From the IMG/VR virus record IMGVR_UViG_2585427966_000002: DNA of 54,288 bases; one strand, given 5' to 3'. The first letter of the stretch is position 1. Every line of letters starts with the position of its first letter. The stretch comes from a virus (taxonomy: Duplodnaviria > Heunggongvirae > Uroviricota > Caudoviricetes). This document shows positions 20,559 to 39,337 of this stretch, one piece after another. The position numbers and the translations under genes were made by a program. Below the pieces are notes generated by a model that saw nothing but the letters and a program-made list of their open reading frames with translations, searched no databases and had not been told where the DNA came from.

Positions 20559-20774
20559 ATGAAATCCATGGACAAAATTTCAACAGGCATTGCCTACGGC
20601 ACCTCCGCAGGCAGTGCTGGCTACTGGTTTTTACAGTTGCTCGATAGAGTAACTCCGTCACAGTGGGCTGCAATCGGTGTGCTGGGTAGTCTGGTATTTG
20701 GCCTGCTGACGTACCTGACAAACCTTTATTTCAAGATTAAAGAAGATAAGCGCAAGGCTGCGAGAGGTGAATAA
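20559..20774 (+). CDS. Holin (EssD/phage 21 S-like), 71 aa
   Basis: Track ORF 20502-20774 trimmed to [10 protein letters not shown] with GGAGGTGAGG RBS; TM segment; directly upstream of the endolysin. Confidence 0.8.
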
Positions 20775-25371: not shown

Positions 25372-26466
25372 ATGAGCAGACCGGACTGGGGGGCGTTGCA
25401 GCAGGAGTATATTGCTGAATACACCCGCTCCGGTATATCTCCGGTGGCATGGTGTGAAGCAAGGGGACTGAATTACGCAACAGCCCGTCGTTACATCAAA
25501 AAAACTCCGAAAAATGCGCAGACAGAAATGTGCAAAACTGCGCAAAAAAGTGCGCAGAAAAAATCTGCGCAGACTGCACAAAAGCGGAACGAAAAATCTC
25601 AGGAAAAAAAGCCAGTATTCGATGCGGGCCTGAATGAGGGCGACGCGGAGGAATTTTCGTTCTGTCCCGATGAATTCGGCATTTCTGACCAGCAGGCTAA
25701 GTTTGCGATGCTTGTTGCTCAGGGTAAAAAGCCGACAGAGGCGTACCGACTAGCCGGTTATGAGGGGCAAGGTGCGACAGCTAACAGCAACGCCAGTCGT
25801 ATGCTTAGAAATGCCAGGGTTTTTCGCGCTATCAGCTACTTCCGCAATCAGTACCAGAAACGCTATACCGCAGACCTGGATTTACTAGTGAGTCAGTTGA
25901 TGGCTATTGTCCTGGCCGACCCCAATCAGCTTGCACAATTTCGCCGTGTTAACTGCCGTTATTGCTGGGGCGAGAATCATCTCTACCAGTGGCGCGATAT
26001 AGCAGAATTCGACAAGGCAGCGGCGCAGGCTTCCAGAGATGGCAAACCCGAACCGGAATATGGAGGCCTCGGCTTTGTTGATAACGCCATACCCAATCCG
26101 GACTGCCCGAAGTGCTGCGGTGAGGGAACGGGACAGCTTTATATGGCTGATACCACTCTGCTTGATGGGGATGCGCGGCAATTATATGCAGGGGCAAAAT
26201 TCGGAAAATTCGGCGTTGAGATCCTGCTGGAGGATAAGGCTGCCGCCCGGCGTGAATTGTTGCGTTTGTTTTCTGCTGGCGGGGCTTTATGTGCAGATAA
26301 ACGGCTACAGGAACTGGAAATTGAACGGCGCAGAATGGAAAACCAGAAGCTGCGCAAAGAGATCGAAACGGTGGAAGATAATGAACATCCCCAGCCTGTG
26401 GCGATCAATATTAATGTGGTTGATGCCAGAGTAAGGAGTGATGAAGATGATCTCTCCGACGCTTAA
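25372..26466 (+). CDS. Terminase small subunit (364 aa)
   Basis: Position before the terminase large subunit; N-terminal HTH-like region; family assigned from memory. Confidence 0.6.
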   Translation: MSRPDWGALQQEYIAEYTRSGISPVAWCEARGLNYATARRYIKKTPKNAQTEMCKTAQKSAQKKSAQTAQKRNEKSQEKKPVFDAGLNEGDAEEFSFCPDEFGISDQQAKFAMLVAQGKKPTEAYRLAGYEGQGATANSNASRMLRNARVFRAISYFRNQYQKRYTADLDLLVSQLMAIVLADPNQLAQFRRVNCRYCWGENHLYQWRDIAEFDKAAAQASRDGKPEPEYGGLGFVDNAIPNPDCPKCCGEGTGQLYMADTTLLDGDARQLYAGAKFGKFGVEILLEDKAAARRELLRLFSAGGALCADKRLQELEIERRRMENQKLRKEIETVEDNEHPQPVAININVVDARVRSDEDDLSDA

Positions 26467-34157: not shown

Positions 34158-35120
34158 GTGAGTTCAGGTGCAAAGGTTATCTCGGCATTTATCCGGGAGA
34201 CGGTTGCAGGCACTACGCCAGCAAGTGGTGACTGGAGTTTATTAAAACGCACAAGCTGGGGAGTAAAACCCACCCAGAATAAAGGCGAAAATAATGAGAT
34301 TGGTGGCTCCCGGATGGCTCAGGGGGCGACGCCTGGCACTGTGGATGTCGGCGGTGATGTTGGTACCAAATTTCGCTGGGGTCAACATGATGATTTTCTT
34401 GCATCCTGTTTCGGCGCGGAATGGTCAGGCGATTCTCTGACAATGGGGAATGAGCGAATAACATTTTCTCTGGCGACCTATGCGTCCGATGTCGGAATTG
34501 CCTCTGTCGTCAGAGGAGCGCAGGTTGGCTCATGGAAAATGCAGATCCCTAACGACGGCGATATTACAGCGACCGTAACCTTTGCCGGACTGGACTGGGA
34601 ATCAAAGGCCGATGATACGAATTTTATCAAAGGCGAACCTGTGGATAGTGCAGGAAAGCTACGTTATTCGTTTAAGGAGGTTTCAGCAGTAAGCCTGAAT
34701 GGTGTTGCCGGAGGTAACGGTTTTTGTATCGACAGTTTTGATATTCAGTTCGATAACAAACTCCAGACACAGCGTTGTATCGGGACTGGCTCGCCTTATG
34801 CAGGAGCAAATATTCCGACTACTTTTACACCGTCCGGTACGGTGACGCTTTCATGGTCTAAAGCCGCGTGGGAAATCTGGAGTAAAACACTGACTGGAGA
34901 AACAGTTCCGTTCAGCTTCACGCTTTCGAATGGAGAGGGGGCATACACTTTCAGTTTCCCGAAGGTTCAGGTGTCAGGTGAATGGCCTGATGGGGGTAAT
35001 AGCGACATTATCCAGGTTCAATTGAGCATTACCGCAGCAGATGAAGCACCTACGATAACCAGAAAAAAAAATTCCCCGGCTGCCGTGATCGCAAAAGCCA
35101 GTGCTGAGGCGATTAGTTGA
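34158..35120 (+). CDS. Major tail (tube) protein (320 aa)
   Basis: Position before the chaperone/frameshift pair and tape measure. Confidence 0.6.
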   Translation: MSSGAKVISAFIRETVAGTTPASGDWSLLKRTSWGVKPTQNKGENNEIGGSRMAQGATPGTVDVGGDVGTKFRWGQHDDFLASCFGAEWSGDSLTMGNERITFSLATYASDVGIASVVRGAQVGSWKMQIPNDGDITATVTFAGLDWESKADDTNFIKGEPVDSAGKLRYSFKEVSAVSLNGVAGGNGFCIDSFDIQFDNKLQTQRCIGTGSPYAGANIPTTFTPSGTVTLSWSKAAWEIWSKTLTGETVPFSFTLSNGEGAYTFSFPKVQVSGEWPDGGNSDIIQVQLSITAADEAPTITRKKNSPAAVIAKASAEAIS

Positions 35121-35168
35121 TTTTCCGTTATTCCTCCTGTGGTACTGCCCTACAGGGGGACGCATTGA

Positions 35169-35630
35169 ATGAGGTTATGGATGTTTATTCTTAATCAGAA
35201 AATTATCATTGGTGGAGAACGCTGGTTTACGCCAATGAAGGACTTAAAACCTGTAGACGGGTTAAAACTGTTGGTGGCAAGCAGCGATAACGATCAGTAT
35301 CGCTCCCGTAATGCATTAATCCGTCGCCACATTGAGAAAATGGATGCCAGTTTGCACGTCGGAACGAAGGAGTTTGATATTTCAAAGGTTTCCGAGGTGG
35401 ATTCTGTTGATGATTTACTCATTGATAATGCCGCTCGTTATCTGCTGAAAGACTGGAAAGGGGTTGGTGAACTGGTTAATGGTGTTGAGGTTGCACTGGA
35501 ATATACGGCAGAACGAGGGATCGCGCTGCTTAAGCAGAATCCAGAGTTGTACTGGCAGATCCTTGCAGAAGCAGCCAGCATCGCCCAGGGTAAAGAGCAG
35601 CAGAAGCAGGATACGATAAAAAAGCCATAG
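35169..35630 (+). CDS. Tail assembly chaperone, G-like (153 aa)
   Basis: Position before the tape measure; slippery heptamer near its 3' end. Confidence 0.6.
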   Translation: MRLWMFILNQKIIIGGERWFTPMKDLKPVDGLKLLVASSDNDQYRSRNALIRRHIEKMDASLHVGTKEFDISKVSEVDSVDDLLIDNAARYLLKDWKGVGELVNGVEVALEYTAERGIALLKQNPELYWQILAEAASIAQGKEQQKQDTIKKP

Positions 35631-35938
35631 CTGCCCAGCGGTGGTTATCGGAGTTCGGGGGAGAAAGGGGGGAAAAGGCAAGATGGAAGCGAGAAAAACT
35701 CAGGTTGCCACCGATACCGGAACCAGAAATAGACCCGGTGCTTAAGGAGTTGTTGTACGCCTATTCGGTAATATCCCGTGCCCGACGTTATGCTGGAATG
35801 GCTGGGGTGCCTTTGCCTTTATCTCTGACAGAGATAAATGAATATTTAGCCACTCATCCGGTATTGATTGAGCGCGATGAATTTGAAGCAGTGATCTTTG
35901 CACTGGATGACCAGTATTTTCAGGAGCAGTGTGTGTAG
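35169..35938 (+). CDS. Tail assembly chaperone frameshift fusion (GT-like) via -1 slip at A_AAA_AAG (35618-35624)
   Basis: Heptamer A AAA AAG lies 4 nt before the G stop; the -1 frame continues ...KKAIAAQRWLSEFGGERGEKARWKREKLRLPPIPEPEIDPVLKELLYA... into track ORF 35705-35938. Confidence 0.5.
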
Positions 35939-36058
35939 TTGTTAATTACGTACACTCTGTTACAGAGATGTGATGGTGTCTTTAATTAAATCGATGATGC
36001 TCCTGGAGAAAAGCATTGCGTGGCCTCGTAATCGCTATATCTACTATTATGTCGCCTG

Positions 36059-36084
36059 AAACCCACTTCGCGGTGGGTTTTTTG
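36059..36084 (+). terminator. Hairpin (acccac-ttcgcg-gtgggt-ttttt)
   Basis: Read directly, 20 bp upstream of the tape measure gene. Confidence 0.4.
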
Positions 36085-36103
36085 TTGTCAGGAGTTTTAA
36101 TAA

Positions 36104-39100
36104 ATGGCAGAGCAAACCTCGCGTCTCGCAATAATTATTGATAGCACTGGAGCGAAAAATAATGCTGACAATCTGACCTCCTCATTAGTCAAAATGACGC
36201 AGGCTGGGGAAACTGCTGCAAATAGCGCAGGGAAAGTGACTAAGGCAACAGAAGATGAGAAGAACGCGCTCGCAAAATTAAAAGCAGCTATTGATCCAGT
36301 TGGTGCCGCAATTGATACTGTCGGTCGACGCTATTCTGAATTAAAGAAATTTTTCGATAAAGGGCTTATTGATAAAGAAGAATATGAATTTCTTGTCCGT
36401 AAACTTAATGAAACCACAGAGGAATTGAGCGGGGTTGCGCAAGCGCAGAGAGAAGCCGAGAAGGCCGGAAAACTTGCTGCCGCCCAGCAGGAAGCGCAGG
36501 CTCAGGCCTTTCAAAGAATGCTGGACAAGATCGACCCTCTGGCTGCGGCGCTAAGAAATCTTGAACAACAGCATGATGAACTTAATGCTGCGTTTGCATC
36601 CGGGAAAATAAATGGTTCTCAGTTTGAGAATTATAGCCGAAAAATACAGGAAACACGGCGAGAGCTTACCGGAGAGGCTCAGGCAGAGCGAGAAGCAGCA
36701 AAAGCGCATGATGAACAGGTTGTTGCTTTGCAACGTCTGATTGCTCAACTTGATCCTGTCGGAACTGCTTTTAATCGTCTGGTAGAACAACAGAAACAGC
36801 TCAATGAAGCAAAAGCTAAGGGGATGCTTTCTCCTGAAATGTATGAGGAGCTTTCTGGAAAACTTCGTGCTATGCGGAGTGAGCTTGAGGTTACTCAATC
36901 ACAATTAAGCAAAACCGGAATGTCGGCAAAACAAACGGCTTTTGCTATGCGCATGTTGCCTGCACAAATGACGGATATTGTTGTTGGGTTGTCCACTGGT
37001 CAGTCGCCATTTATGGTGTTAATGCAGCAGGGCGGCCAGCTAAAAGATATGTTCGGTGGGATTGGCCCGGCGATCAAAGGTGTAGGTTCTTATGTGCTGG
37101 GATTAATTAATCCTTTTACCCTGGCCGCAGCAGCCGTTGGGGTCTTAGGACTGGCTTACTATAAAGGCTCTCAGGAGCAGGACGAATTTAATAAATCTCT
37201 TATTCTTACCGGAAATCAGTTGGGGACAACCAGCGGGCAATTGGGCGATATAGCTCAACGTGCCGGGAATGCGGCTGATTCGACAACTGGTGCTGCGGCG
37301 GCAGTATTAAATCAGCTTGTGCGTTCGGGAAAGGTAGCGAGCAGTTCGCTGGAGCAAGTGACGACAGCGATAGTAAAAACGAGCGAAGTAACAGGAATAT
37401 CAACCGAACAACTGGTTAATGACTTCAATGAAATTGCAAAGGATCCTGTCAGTGCCATATCAAAACTTAATGATCAGTACCATTTTCTGACACTTGCGAC
37501 TTATAACCAGATTAAGGCGCTACAGGATGAAGGGAACCAGCAGGAGGCCGCCCGCATTGCGACAGAAGAATACTCATCCTCAATGATCCAGCGCACCAAC
37601 CAGATTAAAGAAAATCTTGGTTATCTTGAGACTGCATGGAAAGCTGTCGCAGACTCCGCAAAATGGGCATGGGATTCCATGCTGGACATTGGCCGTGAGG
37701 CCTCCCTTGATCAAAAAATCTCAGATGTTCTCCGTCAAATTGATGAAATAGAAAAAAATACCCGACCCGGAGTTTTCGGGTTAGGTGGCATTGGAGATGG
37801 CGGAGCTCAAAATAAAAGGCTGGCACGATTAAAGCAGCAATTGGGCGTACTTCAAGCAGAAAAAATTGCTCAGGACGTCCTAAATTCATCAATAAACGAT
37901 TACAACAAGCGACAACAGGAAGGAATTGAACTCAGACAGAGAGCAGATGCCTTTTCAAAACAATATCAGACCCGGGAGCAGCAGAGAGCTAGTGAACTTG
38001 CAAAACTGGAAAAGCTAAAGAGTCAGTATTCAAAGGAAGAATATAATAATTTTATCGCTCAAATAAATGAGCGTTATAAAGATCCAAAGCAACCAAAGGC
38101 GAAAGGTTATTCGGATGATGCTGCCCAACGAATGATTGATCATCTGAATCAACAGAATGCGTTACTAAGTTCACAAACTGAATTAACCGTTAAATTAAGT
38201 TCCTCTGAACAGGAACTGGTTAAGTGGCGTCAGCAGATTGCCGACCTGGAGTCACGACCGTCATCGAAATTAACCCAGGATCAGAAATCGCTTCTCTTAC
38301 ACCTGGAAGAAATAACCGCGTTGATGGAGAAAAATGTTGCGATTGAAAAAAATAACAGGCTAATCAAGGAATCCGCCGAAATAGCTGCATGGCGTGATTC
38401 ATTGCAGGCTTCGATTGATAATCGTCAACAGGGGTATGATATTCAGATTGCTGGTTATGGGGTTGGCGATAAAAATCAGCAACGCCAGCAGGAATTACTG
38501 CGGATTGAACGTGAATATAACAATCAGCGTCTGCAACTTGAACGTGACTATGCAGATAAATCCCGTGGGATGTCAAATCATGTTTTTCAGGAGAAAATGC
38601 AGGCTCTGAATGATGCTCTGGAACGAGAAAAAGAAATTGTCAGACAGAAAAACGAGCAGCTCGATATTCAGGCAGGAGACTGGGTTAGTGGTGCCTCCCA
38701 GGGATTCAATAACTGGCTGGATGACACTAAGGATATCAGTGAGCAGATAAAATCAACCACGACTCAGATGTTTGATGGAATGACCGATGCGCTGGGTGAT
38801 TTTGTCACGACAGGCAAGGCAAATTTTCGTTCTTTCGCTACTTCCGTGATTTCGGATCTTAGTCGAATAGCATTAAAGGCTTCAATTACTGGGATTTTCG
38901 ACAGCATTAGTAACAGTTCTTCTGGGGGGATTTTAGGAACTATCGGGAGTGCTATTAGTAAATTTATTCCGAATGCAAAGGGCGGTGTTTATGAGTCTCC
39001 GTCATTGAACACGTATTCGAACGGTATTTATGATTCCCCGCAATTTTTTGCTTTTGCAAGAGGGGCTGGTGTTTTTGGTGAGGCTGGTCCGGAAGCCATT

Positions 39101-39337
39101 ATGCCATTAACACGAACTTCCGATGGTTCTCTTGGTGTCAGAGCTATTAATAGTAAAAGTGGTAATGGAGGCGGAGATATTACCTATGCCCCTGTATACC
39201 AAATCACTATTCAAAATGACGGCCAGAATGGAGAGATTGGCCCTCAGGCAATAAAAGCACTTATGGGGATGGTTGATCAGCGGGTGCAGGGCAATCTGTT
39301 AAATATGCGACGTGATGGGGGAATGTTAAGTGGCTAA
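36104..39337 (+). CDS. Tail tape measure protein (1077 aa)
   Basis: Very long coiled-coil-rich ORF in the canonical position; Gly-rich C-terminal part. Confidence 0.85.

What the first reader, a model, noticed from the sequence alone, without database searches (positions are those of the whole stretch)
35618..35624. Programmed -1 frameshift site (A_AAA_AAG) in the tail assembly chaperone gene
The classic slippery heptamer lies 4 nt before the chaperone stop codon, and the -1 frame stays open for about 100 more codons into the downstream ORF. This is the conserved G/GT arrangement of long-tailed phages, here with the A_AAA_AAG heptamer rather than lambda's G_GGA_AAG.
Basis: partly seen in the sequence, partly recalled or inferred. 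Interest (0 to 1): 0.45.

Follow-up and report, generated by a model that had tools for sequence, protein, structure and literature searches.

The report
Tail chaperone -1 frameshift site, Rac-type prophage
This is a genuine but ordinary example of the ribosomal frameshift site that long-tailed phages use to make two tail-assembly chaperones from one gene, here in a very common E. coli Rac-type prophage where public annotation misses it.

Summary
A_AAA_AAG lies at 35618-35624 in the zero frame of a 149-aa gene (35181-35630), between the tail-tube gene and the tape-measure gene. The stop follows one codon later. The -1 frame opens only at 35594 and then runs 104 codons to 35938, so a shift must occur within 37 nt, and the gene's only in-phase slippery heptamer lies there.

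- The heptamer is invariant in 38 distinct relatives, even where the zero-frame stop has moved or is lost.
- In more distant genera the same position holds A_AAA_AAG or lambda's G_GGA_AAG. That swap changes an amino acid but keeps the site slippery.
- Purifying selection switches from the zero frame to the -1 frame exactly at the heptamer, upstream of any possible start codon.

No conserved downstream structure or upstream SD was found, so a low-level, lambda-like shift is expected.

The protein has no BLASTP similarity to lambda gpG or Sakai ECs1801, which also uses A_AAA_AAG. RefSeq calls it "YdaY" with a truncated start plus a separate hypothetical protein.

Verdict: a new, unannotated member of a textbook mechanism. 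Low interest apart from its value for annotation.

The parts
35181..35630 (+). G: zero-frame tail assembly chaperone, 149 aa. RefSeq annotates it as 'YdaY'. An alternative upstream ATG lies at 35169.
   Evidence: PHROG 313 'tail assembly chaperone', E 4e-46. It lies between the tail-tube and tape-measure genes. Met1 of the 149-aa form is invariant in 24 diverse homologues. GAGG at 35171-35174 lies 6 nt before ATG 35181. Zero-frame third-position variation is 117 of 145 sites.
35618..35624 (+). Slippery heptamer A_AAA_AAG: -1 tandem slippage of tRNA-Lys in the P and A sites.
   Evidence: Sequence and phase confirmed. Invariant in 38 distinct relatives. At the homologous position in distant relatives it is A_AAA_AAG or G_GGA_AAG. 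Only the A_AAG tetramer is kept in Erwinia phage Gungnir39 and Pseudomonas phage Aurca01.
35624..35938 (+). T segment: 104 codons plus TAG in the -1 frame, reached only by frameshifting. GT fusion = 35181..35624 joined to 35624..35938, 252 aa.
   Evidence: Frame open 35594-35938. PHROG 1189, E 1e-36, and a weak Pfam Phage_TAC_18 match (E 5e-4, below cut-off). In the 27 codons after the heptamer, variable sites by -1-frame codon position are 9/8/22, and syn:nonsyn is 13:6 in the -1 frame against 3:18 in the zero frame. The -1-frame peptide A[LI]EAQKWL.EFGGE.GEKAKW is conserved down to 44% G identity.
34158..35120 (+). Tail tube (major tail) protein gene, upstream neighbour. By analogy with lambda it is the binding partner of the T domain.
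   Evidence: Pfam Phage_tube_2, E 9e-32. RefSeq 'phage tail tube protein'.
36104..39337 (+). Tape measure protein gene, downstream neighbour. By analogy with lambda it is the binding partner of the G domain.
   Evidence: Pfam TMP_2 E 1e-81, Tape_meas_lam_C E 4e-26.

Best explanation

Most ribosomes translate G (35181-35630) and stop at TAG 35628, giving a 149-aa chaperone. A minority pause with tRNA-Lys on AAA (P site) and AAG (A site) of A_AAA_AAG, slip back one base to re-pair with AAA_AAA, and continue with GCC at 35624 for 104 more codons. That gives a 252-aa G-T fusion.

By analogy with lambda (inferred, not shown here), the G part of both products coats the tape measure protein and the T part recruits the tail tube protein. 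The low shift rate would set the G:GT ratio needed for tail assembly. No conserved stimulatory RNA structure or SD was found, so the heptamer alone, in its local context, is expected to give a frameshift of a few percent or less.

Shown here: the heptamer, its phase, the frame architecture, the family assignment, conservation of the site, and the switch of coding constraint at the site. Inferred: that ribosomes actually shift, the efficiency, and the binding roles of G and T.
For: 1. Anatomy. An in-phase A_AAA_AAG lies within the 37-nt overlap. It is the only in-phase heptamer in the gene, and 104 -1-frame codons follow.
2. Context. The pair lies between the tail tube and tape measure genes. 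G matches PHROG 313 'tail assembly chaperone', and the fusion is colinear with profile positions 13-246 of 258, scoring 174 bits against 159 for G alone.
3. Close relatives. The heptamer is invariant in 80 IMG/VR loci (38 distinct sequences, 79-100% identity), although the zero-frame stop sits 1, 7 or 35 codons downstream of it in different variants.
4. Distant relatives. In GTDB genomes down to 44% identity, the homologous position carries A_AAA_AAG in 9 genera and G_GGA_AAG in 4. This is a Lys-to-Gly replacement that preserves slipperiness. Sharma et al. 2014 measured nearly equal efficiencies for the two heptamers in E. coli: 0.29% and 0.28% without a stimulator, 39% and 43% with the IS3 stimulator.
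5. Coding constraint. Variation moves from zero-frame to -1-frame third positions at the heptamer. Syn:nonsyn is 13:6 in the -1 frame against 3:18 and 1:19 in the other two frames, over the 27 codons that precede any candidate start.
6. No independent start. The candidate starts of T (TTG 35705, GTG 35738) are replaced by CTC and GTA in the 79% relatives.
7. Chance. P is about 0.001 to 0.02.
8. Precedent. The G/GT frameshift is conserved in long-tailed dsDNA phages (Atkins et al. 2016, PMC5009743). A_AAA_AAG is already accepted for another E. coli prophage chaperone cluster (Sharma et al. 2014, PMC4066793, Table S4).
Against: - There is no experimental evidence of a fusion protein for this family. 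No full-length, 100%-identical fusion exists in the 5.8-billion-cluster protein collection. The two 'fused' hits are indel products.
- No stimulator was found. The adjacent hairpin (dG -11.8 kcal/mol) is no better than shuffled sequence (z +0.6), starts 0-2 nt after the site, and is not conserved (consensus -3 kcal/mol, no covariation). The AGGA 6 nt upstream is not conserved in distant relatives.
- One relative (Pectobacterium, L094) has the non-canonical G_GGG_AAG. Two distant phages keep only the A_AAG tetramer.
- G matches no Pfam or NCBIfam model in the libraries used. The T part matches Pfam only below the cut-off.
- The structure model was too poor to test the fold (pLDDT 57).
Confidence: 0.9

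Rival explanations
1. T is translated on its own from an internal start codon (for example TTG 35705 or GTG 35738, as GenBank and RefSeq annotate it), and the heptamer is incidental.
For: RefSeq and GenBank annotate a separate 61-66-aa 'hypothetical protein' starting at window 35738 or 35753. The ORF lister finds TTG 35705.
Against: The 27 -1-frame codons between the heptamer and 35705 are under purifying selection in the -1 frame (syn:nonsyn 13:6 against 3:18 in the zero frame). They encode a peptide conserved down to 44% G identity. The candidate starts are not conserved: CTC and GTA replace them in the 79% relatives. No SD precedes them.
Confidence: 0.04
2. The fusion arises from transcriptional slippage: RNA polymerase drops one A in the A6 run, and normal ribosomes then read the edited mRNA.
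For: Runs of A are known sites of transcriptional realignment (Atkins et al. 2016; Antonov et al. 2013). The protein product would be indistinguishable.
Against: The run is only 6 A, and efficient slippage is described for runs of about 9 or more. Four genera carry G_GGA_AAG, with only 3 A, at the same position. Gungnir39 and Aurca01 carry GCA AAG and GAA AAG. What is conserved is tRNA re-pairing potential, not homopolymer length.
Confidence: 0.03
3. A decayed single gene: G-T was once one ORF, and a 1-nt insertion in an A run split it, so the element is a pseudogene in a defective prophage.
For: The K-12 Rac copy (ydaY) is a truncated remnant. Occasional single-frame versions exist in the databases (P0001, P0002).
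Against: The two-frame layout is conserved across at least 13 genera, with both frames under selection. P0001 and P0002 are a deletion product and a multi-indel product. The same DNA is present in records deposited as phage genomes (ON032529 and nine vB_EcoS records).
Confidence: 0.02

Closest known systems
Phage lambda G / G-T programmed -1 frameshift (Levin, Hendrix & Casjens 1993; Xu, Hendrix & Duda 2004, 2013, 2014, as cited in PMC5009743)
   Same: Two overlapping ORFs lie between the major tail and tape measure genes. The slippery heptamer is near the 3' end of G, T is in the -1 frame with no start of its own, and a stimulatory structure is not evident. Some members of this family use lambda's exact heptamer, G_GGA_AAG.
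   Different: There is no detectable sequence similarity to gpG (BLASTP finds no alignment at E <= 100). The heptamer here is A_AAA_AAG. The stop follows after 1 codon, against 6 in lambda. A 165-nt gap with a terminator-like hairpin separates T from the tape measure gene, whereas lambda T and H overlap.
E. coli O157 Sakai prophage Sp9 ECs1801/ECs1802: cluster A_AAA_AAG_25 of Sharma et al. 2014 (PMC4066793, Table S4), marked 'true, safely inferred'
   Same: The heptamer is the same (AGA AAA AAG TAG), in the same position between the major tail and tape measure genes, with a longer -1 product. A hairpin plus T-run also precedes its tape measure gene.
   Different: It is a different protein family. 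BLASTP finds no alignment for G and only E 0.12 over 6 residues for T. The published cluster therefore does not cover this gene.
E. coli dnaX gamma/tau frameshift signal
   Same: The same A_AAA_AAG heptamer is decoded by the single E. coli tRNA-Lys (PMC5009743).
   Different: dnaX has an SD-like element 10 nt upstream and a strong downstream stem-loop, and shifts at about 50% to give a shorter product. Neither stimulator is present or conserved here, and the product is longer.

Membership tests
Lambda-type G/GT tail assembly chaperone frameshift (Xu et al. 2004) | Two consecutive ORFs located between the major tail (tube) gene and the tape measure gene | tested here: met
   Tube gene 34158-35120, G 35181-35630, T to 35938, tape measure 36104-39337.
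Lambda-type G/GT tail assembly chaperone frameshift (Xu et al. 2004) | The second ORF overlaps the first in the -1 frame and lacks its own conserved start | tested here: met
   The -1 frame is open 35594-35938. Candidate starts are not conserved. -1-frame coding constraint begins at the heptamer.
Lambda-type G/GT tail assembly chaperone frameshift (Xu et al. 2004) | A canonical X_XXY_YYZ slippery heptamer, in phase, within the overlap | tested here: met
   A_AAA_AAG at 35618-35624, the only one in the gene.
Lambda-type G/GT tail assembly chaperone frameshift (Xu et al. 2004) | The slippery site is conserved among homologues while the surrounding sequence diverges | tested here: met
   Invariant in 38 distinct close relatives. 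A_AAA_AAG or G_GGA_AAG in 13 genera, with one G_GGG_AAG exception. The A_AAG tetramer is retained at 27-50% identity.
Lambda-type G/GT tail assembly chaperone frameshift (Xu et al. 2004) | Sequence membership of a recognised tail assembly chaperone family | tested here: met
   PHROG 313 'tail assembly chaperone': E 4e-46 for G and 6e-51 for the fusion. However, no Pfam or NCBIfam model reaches its cut-off, and there is no similarity to lambda gpG.
Lambda-type G/GT tail assembly chaperone frameshift (Xu et al. 2004) | Tail assembly chaperone fold of the G domain | tested here: inconclusive
   The AlphaFold model has mean pLDDT 57. Foldseek against the PDB gave a best E of 0.48 with unrelated proteins. 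The profile search of PDB sequences found nothing.
Lambda-type G/GT tail assembly chaperone frameshift (Xu et al. 2004) | Both G and the G-T fusion are detected, in a large G excess (about 30:1 in lambda), and both are required for tail assembly | not testable with these tools
   This needs protein analysis and genetics. The ratio for lambda is taken from PMC5009743.
dnaX-type high-efficiency -1 frameshift cassette | A_AAA_AAG heptamer | tested here: met
dnaX-type high-efficiency -1 frameshift cassette | SD-like stimulator about 10 nt upstream | tested here: not met
   Only AGGA is present, 6 nt upstream. It lies within Gln-Asp codons and is absent from the Siccibacter, Serratia, Providencia and Rosenbergiella homologues.
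dnaX-type high-efficiency -1 frameshift cassette | Stable downstream stem-loop at 5-8 nt | tested here: not met
   The local hairpin has z +0.6 against shuffles and a 0-2 nt spacer. The 17-sequence consensus is -3 kcal/mol with covariation term -0.19.

The most novel reading that the evidence does not exclude
This chaperone family may set tail-protein stoichiometry at two levels. The first is a stimulator-free frameshift whose heptamer drifts between functionally equivalent forms: A_AAA_AAG, G_GGA_AAG, or a bare A_AAG next to a stop. The second is a conserved hairpin plus T-run placed directly 5' of the tape-measure ribosome-binding site. That hairpin would act as a partial terminator or attenuator lowering tape-measure expression relative to tube and chaperone. 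The same junction would also serve as a preferred docking site for inserted accessory genes (morons).
Probability: 0.15. Interest if true: 0.4.

Novelty: new member of a known kind. Interest (0 to 1): 0.2.

Why it matters
Its main value is for annotation. This exact locus matches 1,092 of 5,426 complete E. coli genomes, and at least 80% of it is present in 714 of them. In the records inspected it is labelled 'protein YdaY' plus 'hypothetical protein', or two hypothetical proteins, with no ribosomal-slippage join. In the RefSeq record the start codon corresponds to the truncated K-12 Rac remnant.

Recognising it as a G/GT pair gives a function to the K-12 orphan name ydaY. It adds a chaperone family with no sequence similarity to lambda gpG or Sp9 ECs1801 to the list of those that use this frameshift. 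The natural swap between A_AAA_AAG and G_GGA_AAG within one family is also a clean example of selection for slipperiness rather than for the encoded amino acid. It does not change what is understood about frameshifting or tail assembly.

Tried and rejected
- **Downstream stimulatory structure.** I folded 60-111-nt windows of this locus and three relatives. None was more stable than shuffled sequence, and the shapes differed. RNAalifold on 17 diverse sequences found nothing. Rejected.
- **Upstream SD-like element.** AGGA lies 6 nt upstream but is not conserved in distant relatives. Rejected as a conserved stimulator.
- **Rfam scan of 35100-36200.** The only match was a sub-threshold hit of the terminator hairpin to the 3' end of sroH (14.7 bits against a gathering score of 80). 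It means nothing for the frameshift.
- **Is this the published cluster A_AAA_AAG_25 (ECs1801)?** I fetched Sakai Sp9 and compared both proteins. They show no similarity.
- **Natural in-frame fusions as support.** P0001 and P0002 turned out to be deletion or indel products. Not used as evidence.
- **Fold confirmation.** The AlphaFold model was poor, and the Foldseek and PDB sequence searches were uninformative.
- **Literature.** No paper links ydaY or the Rac prophage to a tail chaperone frameshift. The two ydaY hits are unrelated. I did not try to read Xu et al. 2004, so I cannot exclude that a Rac-type prophage is in its list of 28 phages.
- **Other in-phase heptamers** (25605, 37327, and the A9 run at 35063): their -1 products are short (8, 28 and 12 codons), and the A9 run is not conserved. 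Judged incidental.

Full report
**Observation.** Positions 35618-35624 read AAAAAAG. The ORF that ends at 35630 is read ...GAT ACG ATA AAA AAG CCA TAG, so the heptamer has the phase A_AAA_AAG, and one codon separates it from the stop. After a -1 slip the next codon is GCC at 35624, and that frame stays open for 104 sense codons, to the TAG at 35936-35938. It includes the mechanically listed ORF 35705-35938. The -1 frame is closed upstream of 35594, so a productive shift has to happen within 37 nt. The only in-phase X_XXY_YYZ heptamer of the whole gene lies in that stretch.

In-phase A_AAA_AAG occurs only twice among 17,709 codon positions of all ORFs of 100 aa or more in the window. That gives P of about 0.001 for one in an 11-codon stretch. 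For any Lys-type heptamer P is about 0.012 from the same count and 0.024 from codon shuffles, and for any heptamer about 0.06. The other strong in-phase heptamers in the window (25605, and GGGAAAG at 37327 inside the tape measure gene) lead to -1 products of only 8 and 28 codons.

**What the genes are.** The upstream neighbour (34158-35120) is a tail tube protein (Pfam Phage_tube_2, E 9e-32). The downstream neighbour (36104-39337) is a tape measure protein (TMP_2, E 1e-81; Tape_meas_lam_C). A lambda M-like minor tail gene follows.

The upstream ORF of the pair matches PHROG 313 'tail assembly chaperone' (E 4e-46). When the predicted fusion is scored, the match extends over profile positions 13-246 of 258 and the score rises from 159 to 174 bits. 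The -1 continuation is therefore colinear with the C-terminal part of that family profile. On its own, the -1 segment matches PHROG 1189 (E 1e-36) and, below the cut-off, Pfam Phage_TAC_18. No NCBIfam model matches.

The likely start is ATG 35181, not 35169. GAGG lies 6 nt upstream of it, and Met1 of the 149-aa form is invariant among 24 diverse homologues.

**Where it comes from.** The 1,953 bases spanning tube to tape measure match 1,092 of 5,426 complete E. coli genomes, with at least 80% coverage in 714. They are 100% identical in 'Salmonella phage SPF_0923' and 98.4% identical in nine Escherichia vB_EcoS phage records.

RefSeq names the chaperone 'ydaY: protein YdaY', the name of a Rac prophage remnant of K-12. 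In the one RefSeq record inspected in detail, it begins at an internal TTG (window 35271, 119 aa), followed by a separate 'hypothetical protein'. The GenBank phage record has two hypothetical proteins. Neither record carries a joined CDS, and none of the 15 listed E. coli rows names a tail assembly chaperone.

In K-12-type genomes, similarity to the intact gene begins only at about window 35279, with unrelated sequence upstream. The RefSeq model therefore corresponds to the truncated remnant. The protein collection of 5.8 billion clusters has no full-length fusion identical to the predicted one. The two single-frame hits (P0001, P0002) are a deletion product and a multi-indel product.

**Comparative test of the frameshift.**

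1. *Close relatives.* In 80 IMG/VR loci (79-100% protein identity, 38 distinct sequences) all seven heptamer columns are invariant. Meanwhile the zero-frame stop lies 1 codon (149-aa form), 7 codons (155-aa form) or 35 codons (183-aa form, TAG changed to TTG) after the heptamer.

2. *Coding constraint.* This changes frame at the heptamer. In the body of G, variable sites by zero-frame codon position number 42/27/117. In the 27 codons between the heptamer and the first candidate start (35624-35704) they number 9/8/22 when counted in the -1 frame. Against the 79% relatives, synonymous:nonsynonymous codon differences there are about 13:6 in the -1 frame, 3:18 in the zero frame and 1:19 in the +1 frame.

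3. *No independent start.* The candidate starts of the downstream ORF (TTG 35705, GTG 35738) are CTC and GTA in the 79% relatives.

4. *Distant relatives.* In representative genomes down to 44% identity, the homologous position carries A_AAA_AAG in Escherichia, Shigella, Citrobacter, Siccibacter, Providencia, Dryocola, Scandinavium and Entomohabitans. It carries G_GGA_AAG in Raoultella, Serratia, Pantoea and Rosenbergiella. That swap changes Lys to Gly but keeps a top-ranked slippery heptamer. The -1 peptide that follows, A[LI]EAQKWL.EFGGE.GEKAKW..EKL.LP.IPEPEID, is conserved throughout. Sharma et al. 2014 measured almost identical efficiencies for the two heptamers in E. coli: 0.29% and 0.28% unstimulated, 39% and 43% with the IS3 stimulator.

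5. *Most distant relatives.* Erwinia phage Gungnir39 (50% identity; GCA AAG TAA) and Pseudomonas phage Aurca01 (27%; GAA AAG CCA) keep only the A_AAG tetramer at the same place, again followed by the homologous -1 peptide. Both annotate separate ORFs.

One Pectobacterium genome has the non-canonical G_GGG_AAG, and one Rosenbergiella copy is decayed.

**Stimulators.** A hairpin can form directly after the heptamer (dG -11.8 kcal/mol). It is no more stable than shuffled sequence (z +0.6), begins 0-2 nt from the site, and is replaced by other folds in relatives. RNAalifold on 17 diverse sequences gives -3 kcal/mol with no useful covariation. An AGGA 6 nt upstream lies within Gln-Asp/Glu codons and is absent from the more distant relatives. 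Rfam finds nothing relevant. The site therefore looks like lambda's low-level shift rather than the dnaX cassette.

**Mechanism proposed.** Most ribosomes terminate at 35628 and make G (149 aa). A small fraction slip -1 on A_AAA_AAG with tRNA-Lys in both sites and make a 252-aa G-T fusion. The roles are inferred from lambda (PMC5009743): the G domain binds the tape measure protein, the T domain recruits the tube protein, and the ratio is set by the shift efficiency.

**Rivals.**
- *Independent initiation of T* is contradicted by points 2-4 above.
- *Transcriptional slippage* is unlikely. The run is only six A, and relatives with G_GGA_AAG, GCA AAG or GAA AAG keep tRNA re-pairing potential but not a homopolymer.
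- *A split pseudogene* is contradicted by conservation of the two-frame layout across many genera, and by the presence of the same DNA in deposited phage genomes.

**Comparison with known systems.**
- The arrangement and mechanism are those of lambda G/GT, but BLASTP finds no similarity to gpG.
- A_AAA_AAG in an E. coli prophage tail chaperone is already in the literature as cluster A_AAA_AAG_25 (ECs1801, Sakai Sp9) of Sharma et al. 2014. I fetched that locus. It uses AGA AAA AAG TAG, but its proteins show no BLASTP similarity to these ones.
- The dnaX signal shares the heptamer but not the stimulators.
- The fold test for G was inconclusive: pLDDT 57, with no meaningful Foldseek or PDB sequence hits.

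**Verdict.** This is a new, unannotated member of a textbook kind, in a protein family (YdaY / PHROG 313) with no BLASTP similarity to lambda gpG or Sp9 ECs1801. Its value lies mainly in annotation, and in the clean within-family swap between two equivalent slippery heptamers. Interest is low.

Noticed in passing
window 36058-36090 (also L070, L096, L097, L099, L100; L083 about 20685-20735): A strong intrinsic-terminator-like hairpin (GAAACCCAC-TTCG-GTGGGTTT plus a T-run) sits directly 5' of the tape-measure SD and ATG. The same layout (hairpin, T-run, TTGyCCGGAGA, ATG) recurs in relatives with different stem sequences (3 of 8 pairs show compensatory changes in 7 sequences). It also occurs in Sakai Sp9, whose chaperone shows no similarity to this one. 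It might be a partial terminator or attenuator that lowers tape-measure expression, or the terminator of inserted genes.
   Followed up: partly
window 35939-36103; L058, L070, L080/L087, L092, L095, L097, L099, L102 downstream of T: The T-to-tape-measure junction varies in length from 29 nt to more than 480 nt. In different relatives it carries different inserted ORFs, several of them lipoprotein-like (for example MKKTVMVAFVLLLAGCATKQ... in the Raoultella and Dryocola loci), so it looks like a hot spot for moron insertion. In the window the gap holds only an untested 29-codon ORF (35972-36059, MVSLIKSMMLLEKSIAWPRNRYIYYYVA).
   Followed up: partly
window 35181-35630 versus the RefSeq model at 35271-35630; L090/L091: In the RefSeq record inspected, 'YdaY' (WP_012565075.1, 119 aa) starts at an internal TTG. 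This corresponds to the 5'-truncated K-12 Rac remnant, whose similarity to the intact gene begins at about 35279 and which is preceded by unrelated sequence (a fused ParB-N-domain form is seen in P0040). Intact prophage copies therefore lose about 30 N-terminal residues in annotation, and the name hides the function.
   Followed up: yes
window 35063-35071: An A9 run, in phase as A_AAA_AAA, lies 17 codons before the end of the tail-tube gene. The alternative frames end after 12 (-1) or 5 (+1) codons, and the run is A7 or absent in relatives, so it is probably incidental.
   Followed up: yes
window 37327 and 25605: An in-phase G_GGA_AAG lies inside the tape measure gene, and an in-phase A_AAA_AAG lies in ORF 25372-26466. 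Their -1 frames close after 28 and 8 codons. They are likely incidental low-level shift sites, and their conservation was not examined.
   Followed up: no
L094 1920-1926 (Pectobacterium odoriferum); L103 (Erwinia phage Gungnir39); L104 (Pseudomonas phage Aurca01): Variants of the site depart from the canonical heptamer: G_GGG_AAG in L094, C_GCA_AAG directly before TAA in Gungnir39, and G_GAA_AAG in Aurca01. The last two keep only the A_AAG tetramer. Whether these shift efficiently, or whether the Pectobacterium copy is defective, is unknown.
   Followed up: partly
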